A DNA stretch of 64,000 nt from Candidatus Levyibacteriota bacterium (GCA_963716145.1 OY970292.1:597171-661170), one strand, 5' to 3'; positions 8,852 to 15,318 are shown, counted from the stretch's first letter. Notes: generated by a model not told the origin, from the sequence alone. Program-made: numbers and translations.

Positions 8852-9643
8852 ATGTTTAGTTTTATGAAAAAGCTTTTTAAAATATTTATTTATACAATAA
8901 TAATTGGGGCAATTTTGCCATTTTTTCTACCGCAAAAAGCGTCGGCTCAAATCTCCTCAATTGGAATTGCAACCTATCTCCCAATAAGTGATAAAAGTGT
9001 CGAAGACGGAGACATAATAGTAACAACAGAAAAAGGATACATTCTCAGCACCATTCCTTATGACTCAAGGATGACTGGGGTAGTCACTACCAATCCTGCT
9101 ATCTCCTTAAAAAATGACCAGAAAAAAGGTTTCCCAGTTATAGGATCAGGTACGGCATATGTAAAGGTTACGGGAACAAACGGCTCTCTTGCAAAAGGAG
9201 ACTTTATCACTTCCTCTCAAGTTCGAGGGACCGGAATGAAAGCCGAGGGAAGCGGATTTGTCTTGGGAAGTGCTCTTGAAAATGCCTCTTTTGCAAAAGA
9301 AGATGATATAAAAATCGTTCAGATTTTTATCAACCCGCACTTTGTACAATCCGGGCTTTCATTTAACAATTCTGTTCTTGATATTTTTAAAATAGGCAAG
9401 CTTGCTGCTTCCGAAAAACCAAGTAAGGCATTGCAGTACATAATTGCTGGCTTAATTACTCTTGTTACTTTCGGTGCAGGCTTAACCATCTTTGCAAAAA
9501 CCGTAAGTACAGGAATTGAGGCGATTGGCCGCAATCCTCTTGCCGGGCGAATGATCCAGCTTTCTATAGTGTTTAATATTTTTCTTATTATTGTGATAGT
9601 TACGGCAGGTACTGCACTTGCTTATCTTGTGATACGATTATAG
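8852..9643 (+). CDS. Secreted/membrane protein with a C-terminal ATP synthase c-subunit-like two-helix hairpin
   Basis: N-terminal signal peptide, ~190-aa soluble domain, then 'GLITLVTFGAGLTIFAKTVSTGIEAIGRNPLAGRMIQLSIVFNIFLIIVIVTAGTALAYLVI'. This follows the c-subunit pattern: Gly-rich helix 1, an 'IEGIARQP'-type loop, helix 2. Helix 2 has no Asp/Glu. The gene sits in the atpE position. Confidence 0.45.
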   Translation: MFSFMKKLFKIFIYTIIIGAILPFFLPQKASAQISSIGIATYLPISDKSVEDGDIIVTTEKGYILSTIPYDSRMTGVVTTNPAISLKNDQKKGFPVIGSGTAYVKVTGTNGSLAKGDFITSSQVRGTGMKAEGSGFVLGSALENASFAKEDDIKIVQIFINPHFVQSGLSFNNSVLDIFKIGKLAASEKPSKALQYIIAGLITLVTFGAGLTIFAKTVSTGIEAIGRNPLAGRMIQLSIVFNIFLIIVIVTAGTALAYLVIRL

Positions 9644-9693
9644 TAGGACAATTTTCAATCAAATTACAATTACAAATTTTTTAAATAAAAATT

Positions 9694-10410
9694 ATGATAA
9701 TAGAATCTGGCTTAATACAAAATTTTCTACTTGCAGCTTCCTTCGCTGCTTTATTTGCAGCAATTACATTTATGTTTATGCGCGTATTTAAAAAAGAGGA
9801 TAAGCCCGACAAAACTGATATAAAACCCACTGAAAAACAAAGCCTTTCAACATATAAAAAAGTGCTTAGCACTGCGCATAAACATGCGAAAACTTTGCTT
9901 TTTGATACAACTGTTGAAGCTGTAAATATAATCGCGGGAACTAAACAAACCAACGAACATATGGAGGAACAGCTGGATAAAGTTCTCCAATCAGTGGCTG
10001 TCAAAGAAATTCACACTCTCAAAACCTCAACAGACTCATATGAAAATGATTACCAAAAGCAGCTACAAACTATCCAGGAACAGATGCATCAACAAACTCA
10101 GGAGGCTATAGAAAACACCAAAAAAAGCTATGAGGAAAAACTCGATAAGTTTACCAATGAACTTCTCAGAAACGGACTATCAACTCAGGAGCTGGTAGAC
10201 AAAAAGACATCAGAGTTACTCTCTGTTGCTGAAAAGGAAGTTGCCGAATATAAAAAAAACCAGCTTGCTAAAATAGATGATGAGGTCAAAAAAATGCTCG
10301 AAAAGGTTTATAGGGATGTTTTGAGAATTAGTATTCCTGAGAATATTCATCAGGATCTTATCATTAAAAGCCTTGAGGAAGCCAAACGGGATGGACTGTT
10401 TAAACTTTAA
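9694..10410 (+). CDS. atpF: ATP synthase F0 subunit b-like protein
   Basis: N-terminal transmembrane helix followed by a long charged coiled-coil region. Position is between the c-like gene and delta. Confidence 0.5.
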   Translation: MIIESGLIQNFLLAASFAALFAAITFMFMRVFKKEDKPDKTDIKPTEKQSLSTYKKVLSTAHKHAKTLLFDTTVEAVNIIAGTKQTNEHMEEQLDKVLQSVAVKEIHTLKTSTDSYENDYQKQLQTIQEQMHQQTQEAIENTKKSYEEKLDKFTNELLRNGLSTQELVDKKTSELLSVAEKEVAEYKKNQLAKIDDEVKKMLEKVYRDVLRISIPENIHQDLIIKSLEEAKRDGLFKL

Positions 10411-10521
10411 CAATTTTCAATTTGAAATTTACAATTTTCAATCAAATTACAATGACACAATTTTAAAATTTAAACATTAAAAATTCAATGAAAATTAAAA
10501 ACTGAAAATTAAAAATTATCT
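10411..10521 (+). repeat. ~105-bp intergenic leader module (full copy A)
   Basis: 'caattttcaatttgaaatttacaattttcaatcaaattacaatgacacaatttt...attcaatgaaaattaaaaactgaaaattaaaaatt' immediately upstream of atpH. About 95% identical to 13445..13550. Confidence 0.8.
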
Positions 10522-10980
10522 ATGAACATATCTGCCCTGCATTCATATTTAAGAACCAAAAACGAAGCAACTAAATTAATTCTCTTGCTTGAGAAGCTAA
10601 TTGATGAGCTTTTTAAAGAAATCTTTAGTCTTGATAAGATACTTGCAAGCGAGCTTACTCTGGAACTTAAAATTATTATTGAAAAACTCATAAAAGAATC
10701 AGGGATAAAGACTGAGAACAAAAAAGAAGTACAAGCTTTTTTAGCCAAATTACAAGAAGAGCTGTCCAGACTTCCGGTTGTTCACATAATTTTGTCTATC
10801 TCTCCAAAAGAACAACAGGTTGAGATAATTCACAATTGGTTTTACCAAAATTTCCAAAAAACCGTGCTGCTTGATATTTCAATAGATCCAACAATTATAG
10901 GAGGAGGCGTTATAAGCTTCAACGGACGCGCCAATGATTACTCGCTGAGAAACAAAATAGGCCAGATGCAAGATATCTAA
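10522..10980 (+). CDS. atpH: ATP synthase F1 subunit delta (OSCP)
   Basis: C-terminus 'IIGGGVISFNGRANDYSLRNKIGQM' matches the delta/OSCP signature. Operon position. Confidence 0.65.
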   Translation: MNISALHSYLRTKNEATKLILLLEKLIDELFKEIFSLDKILASELTLELKIIIEKLIKESGIKTENKKEVQAFLAKLQEELSRLPVVHIILSISPKEQQVEIIHNWFYQNFQKTVLLDISIDPTIIGGGVISFNGRANDYSLRNKIGQMQDI

Positions 10981-13444: not shown

Positions 13445-13550
13445 TTTTCAATTTGAAATTTGCAATTTTCAATCAAATTACAATGACACAATTTTTAGAC
13501 ATTAAAACATTAAAAATTCAATGAAAACTGAAAATTAAAAATTTTATATT
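13445..13550 (+). repeat. ~105-bp intergenic leader module (full copy B)
   Basis: Near-identical to 10411..10521. Immediately upstream of atpD. Confidence 0.8.
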
Positions 13551-14924
13551 ATGGAAGAAAATGTAGGTCGTATTAAACAAATAAAAGGTCAGGTAGTTGA
13601 GGTAGAGTTCCTTTTGGAAAAACCTCAAGTCCATGATCTTTTGCTGCTGGAGGAAGATCCAAGCGTTCAGCTTGAAATTTATTCATCCTCAACTGCAACA
13701 TCTTTTTACTGCATTGTATTCGCGCATGTTGAAAAACTTTATAGAGGTGCCAAAATTATTAATACTAAAAAATCTATCCAGATACCGACAGGTCCTGAAG
13801 TGCTTGGACGGGTAATGAATTTGTTTGGGAAACCACTCGACGGAAAAGGTGAAATAAAAGCCAAGCAGCAAAAATCAATTTATAACAGTGGGGTTAATTA
13901 TGACCGTCTTGTGATATCCAAAGAAATAATGCAAACAGGAATTAAAGCAATTGATTTTTTCTCACCTATTTTAAAAGGCGGAAAGATTGGCATATTCGGA
14001 GGAGCGGGAGTCGGAAAAACAATTCTTCTGACCGAGATAATCCACAACATCATCAATCAAAATCCGACAGATACTGTATCTATATTTGCGGGGGTTGGAG
14101 AGCGCTCGCGTGAAGGACAGGAACTCTACCAGGCTCTTTCCGAAAGCAAGGTCCTGGATCATGTTTGCCTACTGTATGGAAGTATGGGAGAAAACGCATC
14201 CGTCAGATTCAAAACAGCCCAGGCCGCTATTTCTGTTGCTGAGCATTTTCGCGATGAGGTATCCAAAAATGTTCTATTTTTTATAGACAATCTATATCGT
14301 TTTGCCCAAGCAGGACACGAGCTCTCAATGCTTATGAATACAATTCCCTCAGAAGGCGGTTACCAACCAACTTTAACTTCTGAAATGGCGTCTCTTCATG
14401 AACGATTATTTTCAACCAAACAAAACAACATTAGCTCTTTTGAGACAATTTATGTGCCTTCAGATGACATGCTTGACTATGGAGTTCAGTCAGTATTTAC
14501 TCATCTTGATGCCAATATAGTTTTATCCCGTAACATTTACCAAGAAGGACGCTATCCTGCGATAAATCTTCTCGCGTCAGTTTCAACCGCCCTAAAACCC
14601 GCTATTGTCGGCAAAACCCATTCCAAGACAGTTATAAGAGCAGAACAGCTTTTAAAACAAGCTGCCGGACTTGAGAGAATCGCCTCTTTAATCGGCGAAT
14701 CTGAGTTAAATGAGCGGGATAAAATTACTTACAACCGGGCAAAACTTCTCAAGAACTACATGACACAAAGCTTCTTCGTAACAGAGGAACAAACAAGTAA
14801 AAAAGGAGTTTTTGTACCGCTAACTAAGACCATTGCAGATGTATCGGCCATACTTGAAGGACAATTGGATAATACAGACCCAAACAGAATAAAGGATATC
14901 GGAAGCCTGAAGGATCTTAGTTAA
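13551..14924 (+). CDS. atpD: ATP synthase F1 subunit beta
   Basis: Walker A 'GGAGVGKT' and the '[10 protein letters not shown]' beta signature. Confidence 0.9.
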
Positions 14925-15066
14925 TTTTCAATTTAAAATTTGAAATAAAATACAAATGTTTAAAACTTTAAATTTAAAATATTGAAAATTCAATGAAAAT
15001 TGTCCATTCGGCAAGCTCAGGATCCTGAGTTAATCGAAGGAAAAACTGAAAATTAAAAATTGCCTT
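14925..15066 (+). repeat. Leader module copy C with an embedded palindromic 'ggcaagctcaggatcctgag' insert
   Basis: Same 5' and 3' ends as copies A and B. The middle is replaced by the palindromic motif. Upstream of atpC. Confidence 0.7.
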
Positions 15067-15318
15067 ATGGATCCAAAACTTCTTACAGTATCAGTTAAGG
15101 GAGCAAATCGTCAGGAATTTCAAGGTCTTGCAACGTCTGTAACCTCACTGAACAATAAAGGTAAATTTGACGTGCTCCCCTATCATGCAAATTTTATAAC
15201 CCTTATTAAGGACTATGTAATTATCCAACAGCAGGATAAAAAACAAATCACTTTTCCTCTCTCAACAGGAATAATAAAAGTCCAAGGAGATAAAGTTCAT
15301 GTGATAATCGGGGTTTAG
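15067..15318 (+). CDS. atpC: ATP synthase F1 subunit epsilon (N-terminal beta-sandwich domain only)
   Basis: 'FDVLPYHANFITLIKDYVII' matches the epsilon 'GILPGHAPL..' region. Last gene of the operon. Confidence 0.6.
   Translation: MDPKLLTVSVKGANRQEFQGLATSVTSLNNKGKFDVLPYHANFITLIKDYVIIQQQDKKQITFPLSTGIIKVQGDKVHVIIGV

What the first reader, a model, noticed from the sequence alone, without database searches (positions are those of the whole stretch)
8852..15318. ATP synthase operon with a degenerate c-subunit fused to a secreted domain and no subunit a
The operon order is c-like, b, delta, alpha, gamma, beta, epsilon. The gene in the atpE position encodes 263 aa: a signal peptide, a ~190-aa extracytoplasmic domain, then a clear c-subunit hairpin ('TGIEAIGRNP' versus the canonical 'TIEGIARQP' loop, with a Gly-rich helix 1). 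Helix 2 ('LSIVFNIFLIIVIVTAGTALAYLVI') has no Asp or Glu, so the ion-binding carboxylate that every rotary c-ring needs is absent. No subunit a (with the 'RLFGN' arginine) is encoded in the operon or elsewhere in the window. This could be a non-translocating or structurally repurposed F-type complex, or a c-ring that is anchored or decorated on the outside.
Basis: partly seen in the sequence, partly recalled or inferred. Interest (0 to 1): 0.65.

Follow-up and report, generated by a model that had tools for sequence, protein, structure and literature searches.

The report
F-type ATPase lacking its ion path
A large group of ultrasmall bacteria (Microgenomates and WWE3) carries an ATP synthase operon with an apparently working ATP-burning head and stalks, but whose membrane ring protein has lost the acidic residue needed to carry protons, has gained an outward-facing domain, and has no channel subunit beside it, so it probably is not an ATP synthase.

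Summary
Window 8852-15318 encodes c-like, b, delta, alpha, gamma, beta and epsilon in F-type order.

**The c-like protein.** It has a signal peptide, a confidently modelled beta domain that resembles phage cement and fibre proteins, and a C-terminal helical hairpin. A family profile of the hairpin finds only F-type c subunits as its top seven PDB hits (best E=0.004). Foldseek matches c subunits at 1.5-2 A.

**The missing ion path.**
- In 264 family members the GRNP loop is invariant, and the position of the ion-binding carboxylate is never Asp or Glu.
- No subunit a lies in the window or within 10 kb in 88 related loci.
- In 63 of 65 species genomes the fusion gene sits directly upstream of the F1 genes.

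**What is retained.** Alpha/beta catalytic motifs are conserved, b and delta are kept, and epsilon lacks its inhibitory tail.

**Best reading.** This is an F1Fo derivative across Microgenomates and WWE3 that cannot move ions the canonical way and hydrolyses ATP for another, probably mechanical, purpose at the cell surface.

**Open points.** I could not test whether canonical atpB/atpE lie elsewhere in the genome. Kantor et al. (2013) noted the odd operon in one paragraph, without analysis. The apparent N-terminal truncation of alpha is a one-base assembly error.

The parts
8852..9643 (+). c-subunit-derived fusion protein (263 aa): signal peptide aa 1-33 (8852-8950), beta ectodomain aa ~37-165, linker and amphipathic helix to aa ~190, c-like hairpin aa 190-263
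   Evidence: ORF. AF2 model has mean pLDDT 90.5. There are 410 homologues and 611 cluster representatives at 50% identity.
8951..9361 (+). Extracytoplasmic beta domain, similar to phage cement/decoration proteins and to the C-terminal barrel of phage fibre and pre-neck-appendage proteins
   Evidence: Foldseek against BFVD gives E=3e-12 to phage fibre and pre-neck-appendage proteins. Foldseek against PDB gives phage cement proteins at E=1.7e-5. Of 78 family members, 19 weakly hit Pfam XM1_gp53_minor_capsid and a few hit Phage_cement. BLASTP gives 3e-8 to window ORF 7046-8389.
9419..9640 (+). c-like helical hairpin. The invariant GRNP loop is at 9527-9538. Conserved Asn242 is at 9575-9577. Ile247, at the position of the canonical ion-binding Glu/Asp, is at 9590-9592.
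   Evidence: The family profile A5 against PDB returns only F-type c subunits as its top seven hits, best E=0.0041, aligned in register. hhalign gives 46% probability, E=2e-4. Foldseek gives TM-score 0.7-0.85 (normalised to the c subunit) and rmsd 1.5-2.1 A to c subunits. GRNP is present in 264/264 members and the carboxylate position is D/E in 0/264.
9694..10410 (+). Subunit b homologue (238 aa): one N-terminal TM helix followed by a long helical stalk
   Evidence: Family profile A7 against PDB hits ATP synthase subunit b at E=1.1e-8, 2.3e-7 and 2.5e-5, aligned from residue 1. Seven of 50 members hit Pfam ATP-synt_B, best 9.4e-6.
10522..10980 (+). Subunit delta (OSCP) homologue, 152 aa. Only the C-terminal half matches the model.
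   Evidence: Pfam OSCP 2.4e-8 over residues 70-150. NCBIfam TIGR01145 4.6e-8, below its cut-off.
11060..12541 (+). Subunit alpha. It is intact at 493 aa in the organism; in the window it is split by one extra A at 11154/11155.
   Evidence: Searches show the frame change. The independent assembly L092 has an intact 493-aa ORF and lacks the extra A. Pfam ATP-synt_ab 1.2e-58. The Walker A motif and the Arg finger are present.
12551..13444 (+). Subunit gamma (297 aa)
   Evidence: Pfam ATP-synt 3.4e-23.
13551..14924 (+). Subunit beta (457 aa), catalytic
   Evidence: TIGR01039 atpD scores 448.5 bits against a cut-off of 462.85. Walker [15 protein letters not shown] and the Walker B motif are present. 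Across relatives they are conserved in 62/65, 65/65 and 60/65.
15067..15318 (+). Subunit epsilon, 83 aa: the beta-sandwich domain only, with no C-terminal helical (inhibitory) domain
   Evidence: Pfam ATP-synt_DE_N 3.5e-11 covers residues 7-80 of 83. Median length in relatives is 89 aa.

Best explanation
This is a lineage-wide derivative of the bacterial F1Fo ATP synthase, found in Microgenomates (Levy-, Roizman- and Woesebacteria and others) and in WWE3. Its ion-conducting half has been dismantled while its motor half has been kept.

**Shown**
- The operon keeps b, delta, alpha, gamma, beta and epsilon, with intact catalytic motifs.
- The c subunit keeps its hairpin, its N-out topology and an invariant cytoplasmic GRNP loop. 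In canonical enzymes that loop is the surface that gamma and epsilon grip.
- The c subunit has lost the membrane carboxylate and the Gly-rich helix-1 packing motif.
- It has acquired a secreted beta domain of phage cement/fibre type.
- No subunit a accompanies it.

**Inferred**
- Without a carboxylate and without subunit a, the complex cannot translocate H+ or Na+ by the canonical mechanism. It therefore neither makes ATP from an ion gradient nor builds one.
- F1 hydrolyses ATP. Epsilon lacks its inhibitory C-terminal domain, which favours that direction.
- Gamma/epsilon turn, or at least torque, an oligomer of the c-derived protein against the b/delta stator.
- The output is mechanical, or a conformational change delivered across the membrane to the ectodomains on the cell surface. 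The Mycoplasma 'F1-like X0' ATPases, which power gliding or antibody removal, are the analogy.

The stoichiometry of the oligomer, its target outside the cell, and whether rotation is continuous are all unknown.
For: **Operon content and order**
-.

**Homology to c**
- the top seven PDB hits are all F-type c subunits, best E=0.0041.
- hhalign E=2e-4.
- Foldseek rmsd 1.5-2.1 A.

**Loss of the carboxylate and conservation of the loop**
- D/E at the carboxylate position in 0/264 members; GRNP in 264/264.
- Searches show the same pattern on smaller sets.

**Gene linkage**
- 63 of 65 species genomes.
- the same operon on contigs of 0.18-0.89 Mb, with no PF00119 or PF00137 gene within 10 kb.

**No replacement for subunit a**
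- no conserved multi-TM neighbour.
- no subunit a in the window or the loci.

**F1 and stator retained**
- catalytic motifs conserved; epsilon median length 89 aa.
- b is a true b subunit (E=1e-8), so the stator is retained.

**Literature**
- (PMC3812714): for a complete WWE3 genome, Kantor et al. 2013 found no recognisable a, b or c and noted the same transmembrane protein in OP11/WWE3 ATPase operons.
- (PMC12994834): the Mycoplasma Type 3 F1-like X0 ATPase includes a subunit with a signal peptide, an ectodomain and two C-terminal TM helices.
Against: - The rest of the 1.14-Mb genome, and of the related complete genomes, could not be searched. A canonical or very divergent subunit a, or a second c, elsewhere is not excluded.
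- Curated c-subunit models do not reach threshold. Only 4 of 78 members hit Pfam ATP-synt_C, and those are sub-threshold.
- No oligomer model or physical association with F1 has been shown.
- About 6% of family members carry an N-terminal cytoplasmic HTH_17 domain plus an extra TM helix while occupying the same operon slot. That is hard to reconcile with free rotation past a peripheral stalk.
- A conserved polar residue sits in helix 2 (Asn 244, His 14 of 264). It could mean some non-canonical ion chemistry.
- In one WWE3 genome the c-like gene stands alone. In one operon (L089) no c-like gene is adjacent.
Confidence: 0.5

Rival explanations
1. It is still an ion-translocating F-type ATPase or synthase that uses non-canonical chemistry. 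The conserved polar residues of helix 2 (Asn/His at loop-Pro+13, Gln/Glu at +7) would form the ion site. A highly divergent stator partner, encoded elsewhere or supplied by the b TM helix, would provide the half-channels.
For: - Helix 2 has strictly conserved polar positions: N 244/H 14 and Q 201/E 22 of 264.
- The full peripheral stalk is retained.
- The literature expects a reverse-running proton pump in Patescibacteria.
Against: - From general knowledge of rotary ATPases, none is known to work without a membrane carboxylate on c and an Arg-bearing subunit a.
- The conserved Asn lies five residues nearer the cytoplasm than the canonical site.
- No candidate partner is conserved next to the operon.
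- Kantor et al. found no subunit a in a complete WWE3 genome.
Confidence: 0.17
2. Canonical atpB and atpE exist elsewhere in these genomes and form the real Fo. The fusion protein would then be an accessory: a minority member of a mixed c-ring, or an anchoring, assembly or regulatory subunit of an otherwise ordinary ATP synthase.
For: - Split atp operons and mixed c-rings exist in other bacteria (general knowledge).
- The c-like gene can be unlinked from the F1 genes.
- The whole genome could not be searched.
Against: - The fusion gene occupies exactly the atpE slot in 63 of 65 genomes.
- No canonical c or a lies within 10 kb in 88 loci.
- Beta homologues down to 57% identity sit in operons of the same Fo-less type.
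- The complete WWE3 genome was reported without recognisable a, b or c.
Confidence: 0.13
3. The c-derived protein is not a rotor. It forms a small static oligomer, for example a trimer like its phage-type ectodomain. That oligomer only tethers a soluble-type F1-ATPase to the membrane, or couples F1 to a sensing or DNA-binding function in the HTH variants.
For: - Homologues of the ectodomain are phage capsid cement and fibre-end modules. That these are usually trimeric is general knowledge.
- HTH-TM variants occupy the same slot.
- The GxGxGxG ring-packing motif is lost from helix 1.
Against: - Retaining b and delta makes most sense if a rotor must be held against a stator.
- The invariant R-N-P loop mirrors the surface of real c-rings that binds gamma and epsilon.
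Confidence: 0.15
4. It is a decaying, non-functional remnant of an ATP synthase in reduced genomes.
For: - Subunit a and the carboxylate are lost.
- The window copy of alpha looks frameshifted.
Against: - The frameshift is an assembly error.
- Catalytic motifs and the hairpin loop are conserved across hundreds of divergent species.
- Gene order is preserved.
Confidence: 0.03

Closest known systems
Canonical bacterial F1Fo ATP synthase (atpIBEFHAGDC)
   Same: - The gene order c-b-delta-alpha-gamma-beta-epsilon is the same.
- Alpha, beta, gamma, delta, epsilon and b are homologous, and the catalytic residues are intact.
- The c hairpin has an R-(Q/N)-P cytoplasmic loop and N-out topology.
   Different: - There is no subunit a in the operon.
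- The c subunit has no ion-binding Asp/Glu and no GxGxGxG motif.
- The c subunit carries a signal peptide and a ~130-aa ectodomain.
- Epsilon lacks its C-terminal domain.
- All subunits score below NCBIfam equivalog cut-offs.
Mycoplasma 'F1-like X0' ATPases: Type 2 (gliding motor of M. mobile) and Type 3 (needed for MIB-MIP antibody cleavage). Sources: PMC3369863, PMC11864180, PMC12994834.
   Same: - An F1-type ATPase is coupled to non-Fo membrane proteins and used for work at the cell surface rather than for chemiosmosis.
- Type 3 includes a subunit with a signal peptide, a large ectodomain and two C-terminal TM helices. That is the same architecture as the fusion protein here.
- The host is a reduced-genome, host-dependent bacterium.
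   Different: - The Mycoplasma clusters lack b and delta, have a 12-TM protein, and coexist with a genuine F1Fo.
- Here b and delta are kept, the membrane protein is recognisably c-derived, and no second ATPase is known.
- Alpha and beta here score best to atpA/atpD, not to the MSC_0618/0619 or MMOB1660/1670 models.
- Homology between the two ectodomain-plus-2-TM subunits was not tested.
The atypical ATPase operon of WWE3/OP11 remarked on by Kantor et al. 2013 (mBio, PMC3812714)
   Same: This is evidently the same thing. Alpha, beta, gamma and epsilon are recognisable, the neighbouring membrane subunits have no significant homology to known subunits, and the putative c is shared between OP11 and WWE3 ATPase operons.
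   Different: The paper has one paragraph on it. It assumed that a, b and c were all present but divergent. It did not report the ectodomain fusion, the loss of the carboxylate, the absence of subunit a, the true identities of b and delta, or the breadth of the family.
c-rings with a reduced number of ion sites, such as the Acetobacterium woodii mixed c-ring and duplicated V/A-type proteolipids that have lost one carboxylate (general knowledge)
   Same: This is a precedent for c-type hairpins that have lost the carboxylate yet still assemble into a rotor.
   Different: In those rings other hairpins keep the carboxylate and a subunit a is present. Here no member of the family has it.

Membership tests
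F-type ATP synthase subunit c (Pfam PF00137 ATP-synt_C) | Two-helix hairpin with a cytoplasmic R-(Q/N)-P loop and both termini outside | tested here: met
   - The AF2 hairpin covers aa 190-262.
- Foldseek matches c subunits with TM-score 0.7-0.85 (normalised to the c subunit).
- The family profile aligns GRNP onto the RQP/RNP of solved c subunits, E=0.004-0.04.
- The signal peptide places the N-terminus outside.
F-type ATP synthase subunit c (Pfam PF00137 ATP-synt_C) | Membrane-embedded ion-binding Asp/Glu in helix 2 | tested here: not met
   The equivalent position (loop Pro+18, Ile247 here) is I/V/L/A/F/M/T/G/S/C in 264 of 264 family members. Only one member has any acidic residue in the helix-2 core.
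F-type ATP synthase subunit c (Pfam PF00137 ATP-synt_C) | Match to the curated family model above threshold | tested here: not met
   - Pfam gives no hit for the window protein.
- Four of 78 relatives hit at sub-threshold level, best E=0.0024.
- NCBIfam NF005733 scores 15.6 bits against a cut-off of 85.
F-type ATP synthase subunit c (Pfam PF00137 ATP-synt_C) | Gly-rich GxGxGxG packing motif in helix 1 | tested here: not met
   Helix 1 reads SFxxGFxxF, with conserved Phe residues and a single invariant Gly. Compare the canonical alignment A3.
Complete ion-translocating F1Fo ATP synthase | Alpha3beta3 catalytic head with Walker A/B motifs, catalytic Glu and Arg finger; gamma and epsilon rotor | tested here: met
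   Motifs are conserved in 60-65 of 65 beta sequences and 63-65 of 71 alpha sequences.
Complete ion-translocating F1Fo ATP synthase | Peripheral stalk (b and delta) | tested here: met
   The b family profile hits PDB subunit b at E=1.1e-8. Delta hits OSCP at 2.4e-8 over its C-terminal half only.
Complete ion-translocating F1Fo ATP synthase | Subunit a (PF00119) with the essential Arg, encoded in the genome | tested here: inconclusive
   - It is absent from the 64-kb window.
- It is absent within 10 kb of the operon in 88 related loci.
- The remainder of the genomes cannot be searched with these tools.
- Kantor et al. 2013 report no recognisable subunit a in a complete WWE3 genome.
Mycoplasma F1-like X0 ATPases (NCBIfam MSC_0618/0619, MMOB1660/1670) | [quoted passage not shown] The cluster lacks b and delta, carries a 12-TM subunit, and coexists with a genuine F1Fo. 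| tested here: not met
   - Alpha scores 324 and 235 bits against cut-offs of 600 and 520. Beta scores 409 and 324 bits against cut-offs of 570 and 850. Both score higher to atpA/atpD.
- b and delta are present.
- No 12-TM neighbour is present.
- Coexistence with a second ATPase could not be tested.
N-ATPase (alternate F1Fo, TIGR03305/TIGR03324) | Clade-specific alpha, beta and epsilon models. The operon carries AtpQ/AtpR, subunit a and a Na+-type c. | tested here: not met
   Beta scores 409 bits against a cut-off of 752, and alpha 300 against 750. The gene order is that of a classical F-type operon, with no a, AtpQ or AtpR.

The most novel reading that the evidence does not exclude
The complex is a new kind of rotary machine. 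An F1 motor, held by a b/delta stator, uses ATP to spin or torque a carboxylate-free c-derived ring. The ring's crown of phage-fibre-type domains projects from the cell. Those domains are homologous to the end module of the giant surface-fibre protein encoded just upstream. The rotation would be delivered to the outside, for example to move, wind, assemble or release surface fibres used to contact host cells. This would be the first F-type motor whose rotor does mechanical work outside the cytoplasmic membrane. It would also mean that a whole superphylum annotated as having 'ATP synthase' has none.
Probability: 0.2. Interest if true: 0.92.

Novelty: new variant of a known kind. Interest (0 to 1): 0.74.

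Why it matters
[quoted passage not shown] For Microgenomates and WWE3 the sequence evidence says the enzyme cannot be a chemiosmotic machine at all. The family comprises 611 cluster representatives at 50% identity and was found in 178 species-level genomes.

**Consequences for metabolic reconstruction.** Reconstructions that score 'Complex V present' from alpha, beta and gamma would be wrong for this clade. 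Its energy budget would rest on substrate-level phosphorylation alone.

**A new case of motor re-use.** It would be a second, independent example of an F1 motor re-used for surface work, after the Mycoplasma F1-like ATPases. This one still keeps a c-derived ring and a stator, so it offers a natural intermediate for asking how rotary ATPases are re-purposed.

**Testability.** The proteins are small, conserved and easy to express.

Tried and rejected
**Curated models on the c-like protein.** Pfam and NCBIfam gave no usable hit. A first, narrow hairpin profile (A2) against PDB was insignificant (E=1.3). A more diverse profile (A5) was needed.

**Search for subunit a.**
- tblastn with E. coli AtpB/AtpE and the PS3 c subunit against 88 loci found nothing.
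On inspection this was a hydrophobic-stretch match without the Arg motif, and I rejected it.
- A motif scan for canonical short c subunits in the loci found none.

**Whole-genome test for atpB/atpE.** This was not possible. I judged that a generic a-subunit query to the protein database would not surface relatives from this clade, so I left the third homology search unused.

**Literature.** Ten searches found no paper that analyses this variant. Only the Kantor 2013 remark turned up.

**Promoter and terminator scan.** The counts were no different from shuffled sequence.

**PHROGs.** Only weak hits.

**Truncated alpha.** I considered that a truncated alpha N-terminus might mean loss of delta binding, and rejected it. 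The truncation is a one-base assembly insertion.

**Genes between c-like and b.** In Woesebacteria the inserted gene is a phosphoglycerate mutase. In some Levybacteria it is a 23S-rRNA-IVP gene. Neither is a subunit a.

Full report
**1. What is in the sequence**

Window 8852-15318 carries seven co-oriented genes.
- Six are recognisable F-type subunits.
  - Pfam gives delta OSCP 2.4e-8, alpha ATP-synt_ab 1.2e-58, gamma 3.4e-23, beta 2.5e-65, and epsilon ATP-synt_DE_N 3.5e-11 (83 aa, N-terminal domain only).
  - The 238-aa second gene gave only weak single-sequence hits. A profile of 50 orthologues finds solved ATP synthase b subunits at E=1.1e-8, 2.3e-7 and 2.5e-5, aligned from the TM helix onward. 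It is a genuine b.
- All subunits fall below NCBIfam equivalog cut-offs. Beta, for example, scores 448.5 bits against 462.85 for atpD. They still score best to the classical F-type models, not to the N-ATPase or Mycoplasma F1-like models.
- The organism is a Levybacteria-like member of the Microgenomates. The best related loci are labelled Candidatus Levyibacteriota.

**2. The gene in the atpE slot (8852-9643, 263 aa)**

Architecture.
- It has an AXA-type signal peptide.
- Its beta-rich ectodomain is modelled with high confidence (mean pLDDT 90.5, strands between aa 37 and 165).
- A flexible linker, an amphipathic helix and a C-terminal two-helix hairpin follow.

The hairpin is derived from an F-type c subunit.
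- Curated models miss it.
- A profile of 63 diverse hairpins searched against all PDB sequences returns F-type c subunits as its seven best hits. These include Chloroflexus E=0.0041, A. woodii c2 0.0064, and Spirulina and chloroplast 0.014-0.04. All align with GRNP on RQP/RNP.
- Foldseek places the model hairpin on c subunits at rmsd 1.5-2.1 A, with TM-score 0.7-0.85 normalised to the c subunit.
- Topology agrees. The signal peptide puts the N-terminus outside, as in c, and the basic loop lies inside.

The ectodomain is a phage-type module.
- BFVD matches at E=3e-12 are phage fibre and pre-neck-appendage proteins, with a DUF2190 protein among the weaker hits.
- PDB matches are capsid cement and decoration proteins.
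- Family members weakly hit Pfam XM1_gp53_minor_capsid and Phage_cement.
- The same domain occurs in the fibre-like ORF 7046-8389 just upstream (BLASTP 3e-8).

**3. Loss of the ion site**

- In register with the PS3, E. coli and Chloroflexus c subunits, the carboxylate position is Ile247.
- Across 264 family members the GRNP loop is invariant. The carboxylate position is never Asp or Glu (I 124, V 54, L 46, A 20, others 20). Only one member has any acidic residue in the helix-2 core.
- Helix 1 lacks the GxGxGxG motif.
- Five residues nearer the loop there is a conserved polar residue (Asn 244, His 14). Its role is unexplained.

**4. Is it an isolated oddity?**

No.
- The full-length protein has 410 homologues.
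- The hairpin profile finds 611 cluster representatives at 50% identity among 1.84 billion proteins. The match is always at the extreme C-terminus.
- 178 species-level genomes encode it. Named taxa include Levy-, Roizman- and Woesebacteria, WWE3 and 'Microgenomates'. Many MAGs are evidently mislabelled.
- In 63 of 65 genomes with at least 4 kb downstream, alpha and beta follow on the same strand, and 53 show alpha, gamma, beta and epsilon.
- The exceptions are one WWE3 genome with a solitary copy, one divergently oriented operon (L080), and one operon with no adjacent c-like gene (L089).
- Beta homologues down to 57% identity still sit in operons of this Fo-less type.

**5. Subunit a**

- None is in the window. 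Of the ORFs with two or more predicted TM segments, the longer ones are ComEC, AcrB and DUF2238 proteins, and the rest have no Pfam hit.
- None is within 10 kb in 88 loci, by precomputed Pfam, tblastn or a small HMM.
- No multi-TM gene is conserved beside the operon.
- I could not search the rest of any genome.
- Kantor et al. 2013 wrote about the complete WWE3 RAAC2 genome. [quoted passage not shown] That is prior notice of the oddity. It is also indirect evidence that no canonical Fo is annotated in a complete genome of the clade.

**6. What still works**

- Beta keeps Walker A, GERxxE and Walker B in 62, 65 and 60 of 65 relatives.
- Alpha keeps Walker A and the Arg finger in 65 and 63 of 71.
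- Epsilon is uniformly short (median 89 aa), so it lacks the C-terminal domain that inhibits hydrolysis in many bacteria (general knowledge).
- b and delta are retained.
- The apparent N-terminal truncation of alpha in the window is an artefact. One extra A at 11154/11155 splits the gene, and an independent assembly of the same organism has an intact 493-aa alpha.

**7. Mechanism**

The simultaneous, clade-wide loss of the two parts that make the ion path is what one expects if ion translocation was abandoned. Those parts are the Arg-bearing subunit a and the c carboxylate. The hydrolytic motor, the stator and the gamma/epsilon-binding loop all remain conserved.

The best-supported reading is an ATP-hydrolysing F1 that torques a c-derived oligomer whose ectodomains face the cell surface. 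Confidence is about 0.5 for 'non-translocating and repurposed'. The mechanical output is an inference.

The closest functional analogy is the Mycoplasma F1-like X0 ATPases (PMC3369863, PMC11864180, PMC12994834). Type 3 even contains a subunit with a signal peptide, an ectodomain and two C-terminal TM helices. The membership tests fail, however. Here b and delta are present, the membrane protein is c-derived, and alpha and beta are closest to atpA/atpD.

**8. Complications**

- About 6% of members (17 of 264, 390-538 aa) replace the signal peptide with a cytoplasmic HTH_17 domain, a linker and an extra TM helix. They still occupy the atpE slot. That argues against a freely spinning ring, at least in those lineages.
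- The ectodomain's relatives are phage capsid cement and fibre-end modules. Such modules are typically trimeric (general knowledge), and the ring-packing motif is gone. A small static oligomer is therefore a live rival.
- Non-canonical ion chemistry and a canonical Fo elsewhere in the genome also remain possible, with lower probability.

**9. Novelty and verdict**

The structure of the finding is confirmed and generalised. The functional claim is a strong inference with one decisive test outstanding. The operon's oddness was remarked on once, in 2013. I found nothing in the searchable literature that describes the c-derivation, the ectodomain fusion, the universal loss of the carboxylate, the absence of subunit a, or the breadth of the family. 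I rate it a new variant of a known kind, with interest 0.74.

Noticed in passing
window 11060-11200 (extra A at 11154/11155): The alpha gene is split by a one-base insertion in this assembly. An independent Logan assembly of the same organism (L092) lacks the extra A and encodes an intact 493-aa alpha. This is an assembly or consensus error, or a rare variant, not a truncated subunit.
   Followed up: yes
window 16-8389 (+): Four consecutive, overlapping ORFs alternate between two frames (16-1179, 1073-6139, 6175-7101, 7046-8389). They carry 19 'GNVGIGT' repeats. Their ends match the phage pre-neck-appendage/Peptidase_G2 intramolecular-chaperone region, followed by the same beta domain as the c-like ectodomain. 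This is probably one giant surface-fibre gene of ~2,800 aa broken by further indel errors. Its GC content is 0.49 against 0.35 for the ATPase operon.
   Followed up: partly
P0346/L091:5377-6840; also P0351, P0309, P0318, P0364, P0352: A minority of family members (17 of 264) have a cytoplasmic N-terminal HTH_17 (MerR/excisionase-like) domain and an extra TM helix in place of the signal peptide. They still sit in the atpE slot of the operon.
   Followed up: partly
window 9575-9577 (Asn242); family-wide position loop-Pro+13: A membrane-embedded polar residue in helix 2 is conserved (Asn in 244, His in 14, Ser/Thr in 6 of 264). It lies five residues nearer the cytoplasm than the canonical carboxylate site. 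Its role is unexplained.
   Followed up: partly
window 8429-8806; L004:14745-15119; L036:11669-12046 and 12582-13181; L065:3623-4060: Small '23S rRNA intervening sequence protein' genes (PF05635) lie immediately upstream of this ATPase operon, or are inserted between its genes, in several genomes. They look mobile or opportunistic.
   Followed up: no
L084:1059-2768, L073:10800-12527, L086:10835-12616, L087:6442-8214: In Woesebacteria a ~570-590-aa gene is inserted between the c-like gene and b. By its sequence motifs it looks like a cofactor-independent phosphoglycerate mutase, a glycolytic ATP-pathway enzyme.
   Followed up: partly
L002/L021 (WWE3 JAAXWF010000001.1) and L089 (JGI Ga0613668_000005): The c-like gene can be unlinked. 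It stands alone in one WWE3 genome. Conversely, one b-delta-alpha-gamma-beta-epsilon operon has no adjacent c-like gene and is preceded by a 1,155-aa Big/PKD surface protein.
   Followed up: partly
window 15657-16379 (-), 18081-18545 (-): A sortase gene, convergent with the operon's end, recurs in 12 related loci. Nucleoside diphosphate kinase recurs in 13. PEGA-domain, MreB and WecG genes recur upstream in 15-19 loci. This is subclade synteny of unknown relevance.
   Followed up: partly
window 21168-25865 (-): Three tandem paralogues of 490-513 aa, 60-72% identical to one another, have no Pfam hit.
   Followed up: partly
loci L016-L088 record titles: Many MAGs carrying this Microgenomates-type operon are deposited as 'uncultured Gammaproteobacteria', 'Saccharimonadales', 'Methylomirabilota' or 'Lysobacterales'. 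These are likely taxonomic mislabels or mis-binned contigs.
   Followed up: no
window 41945-45277 (-): A full-length AcrB/RND-type transporter (PF00873, 9.5e-157) is encoded in this CPR genome. That is notable because these bacteria lack an outer membrane (general knowledge).
   Followed up: no
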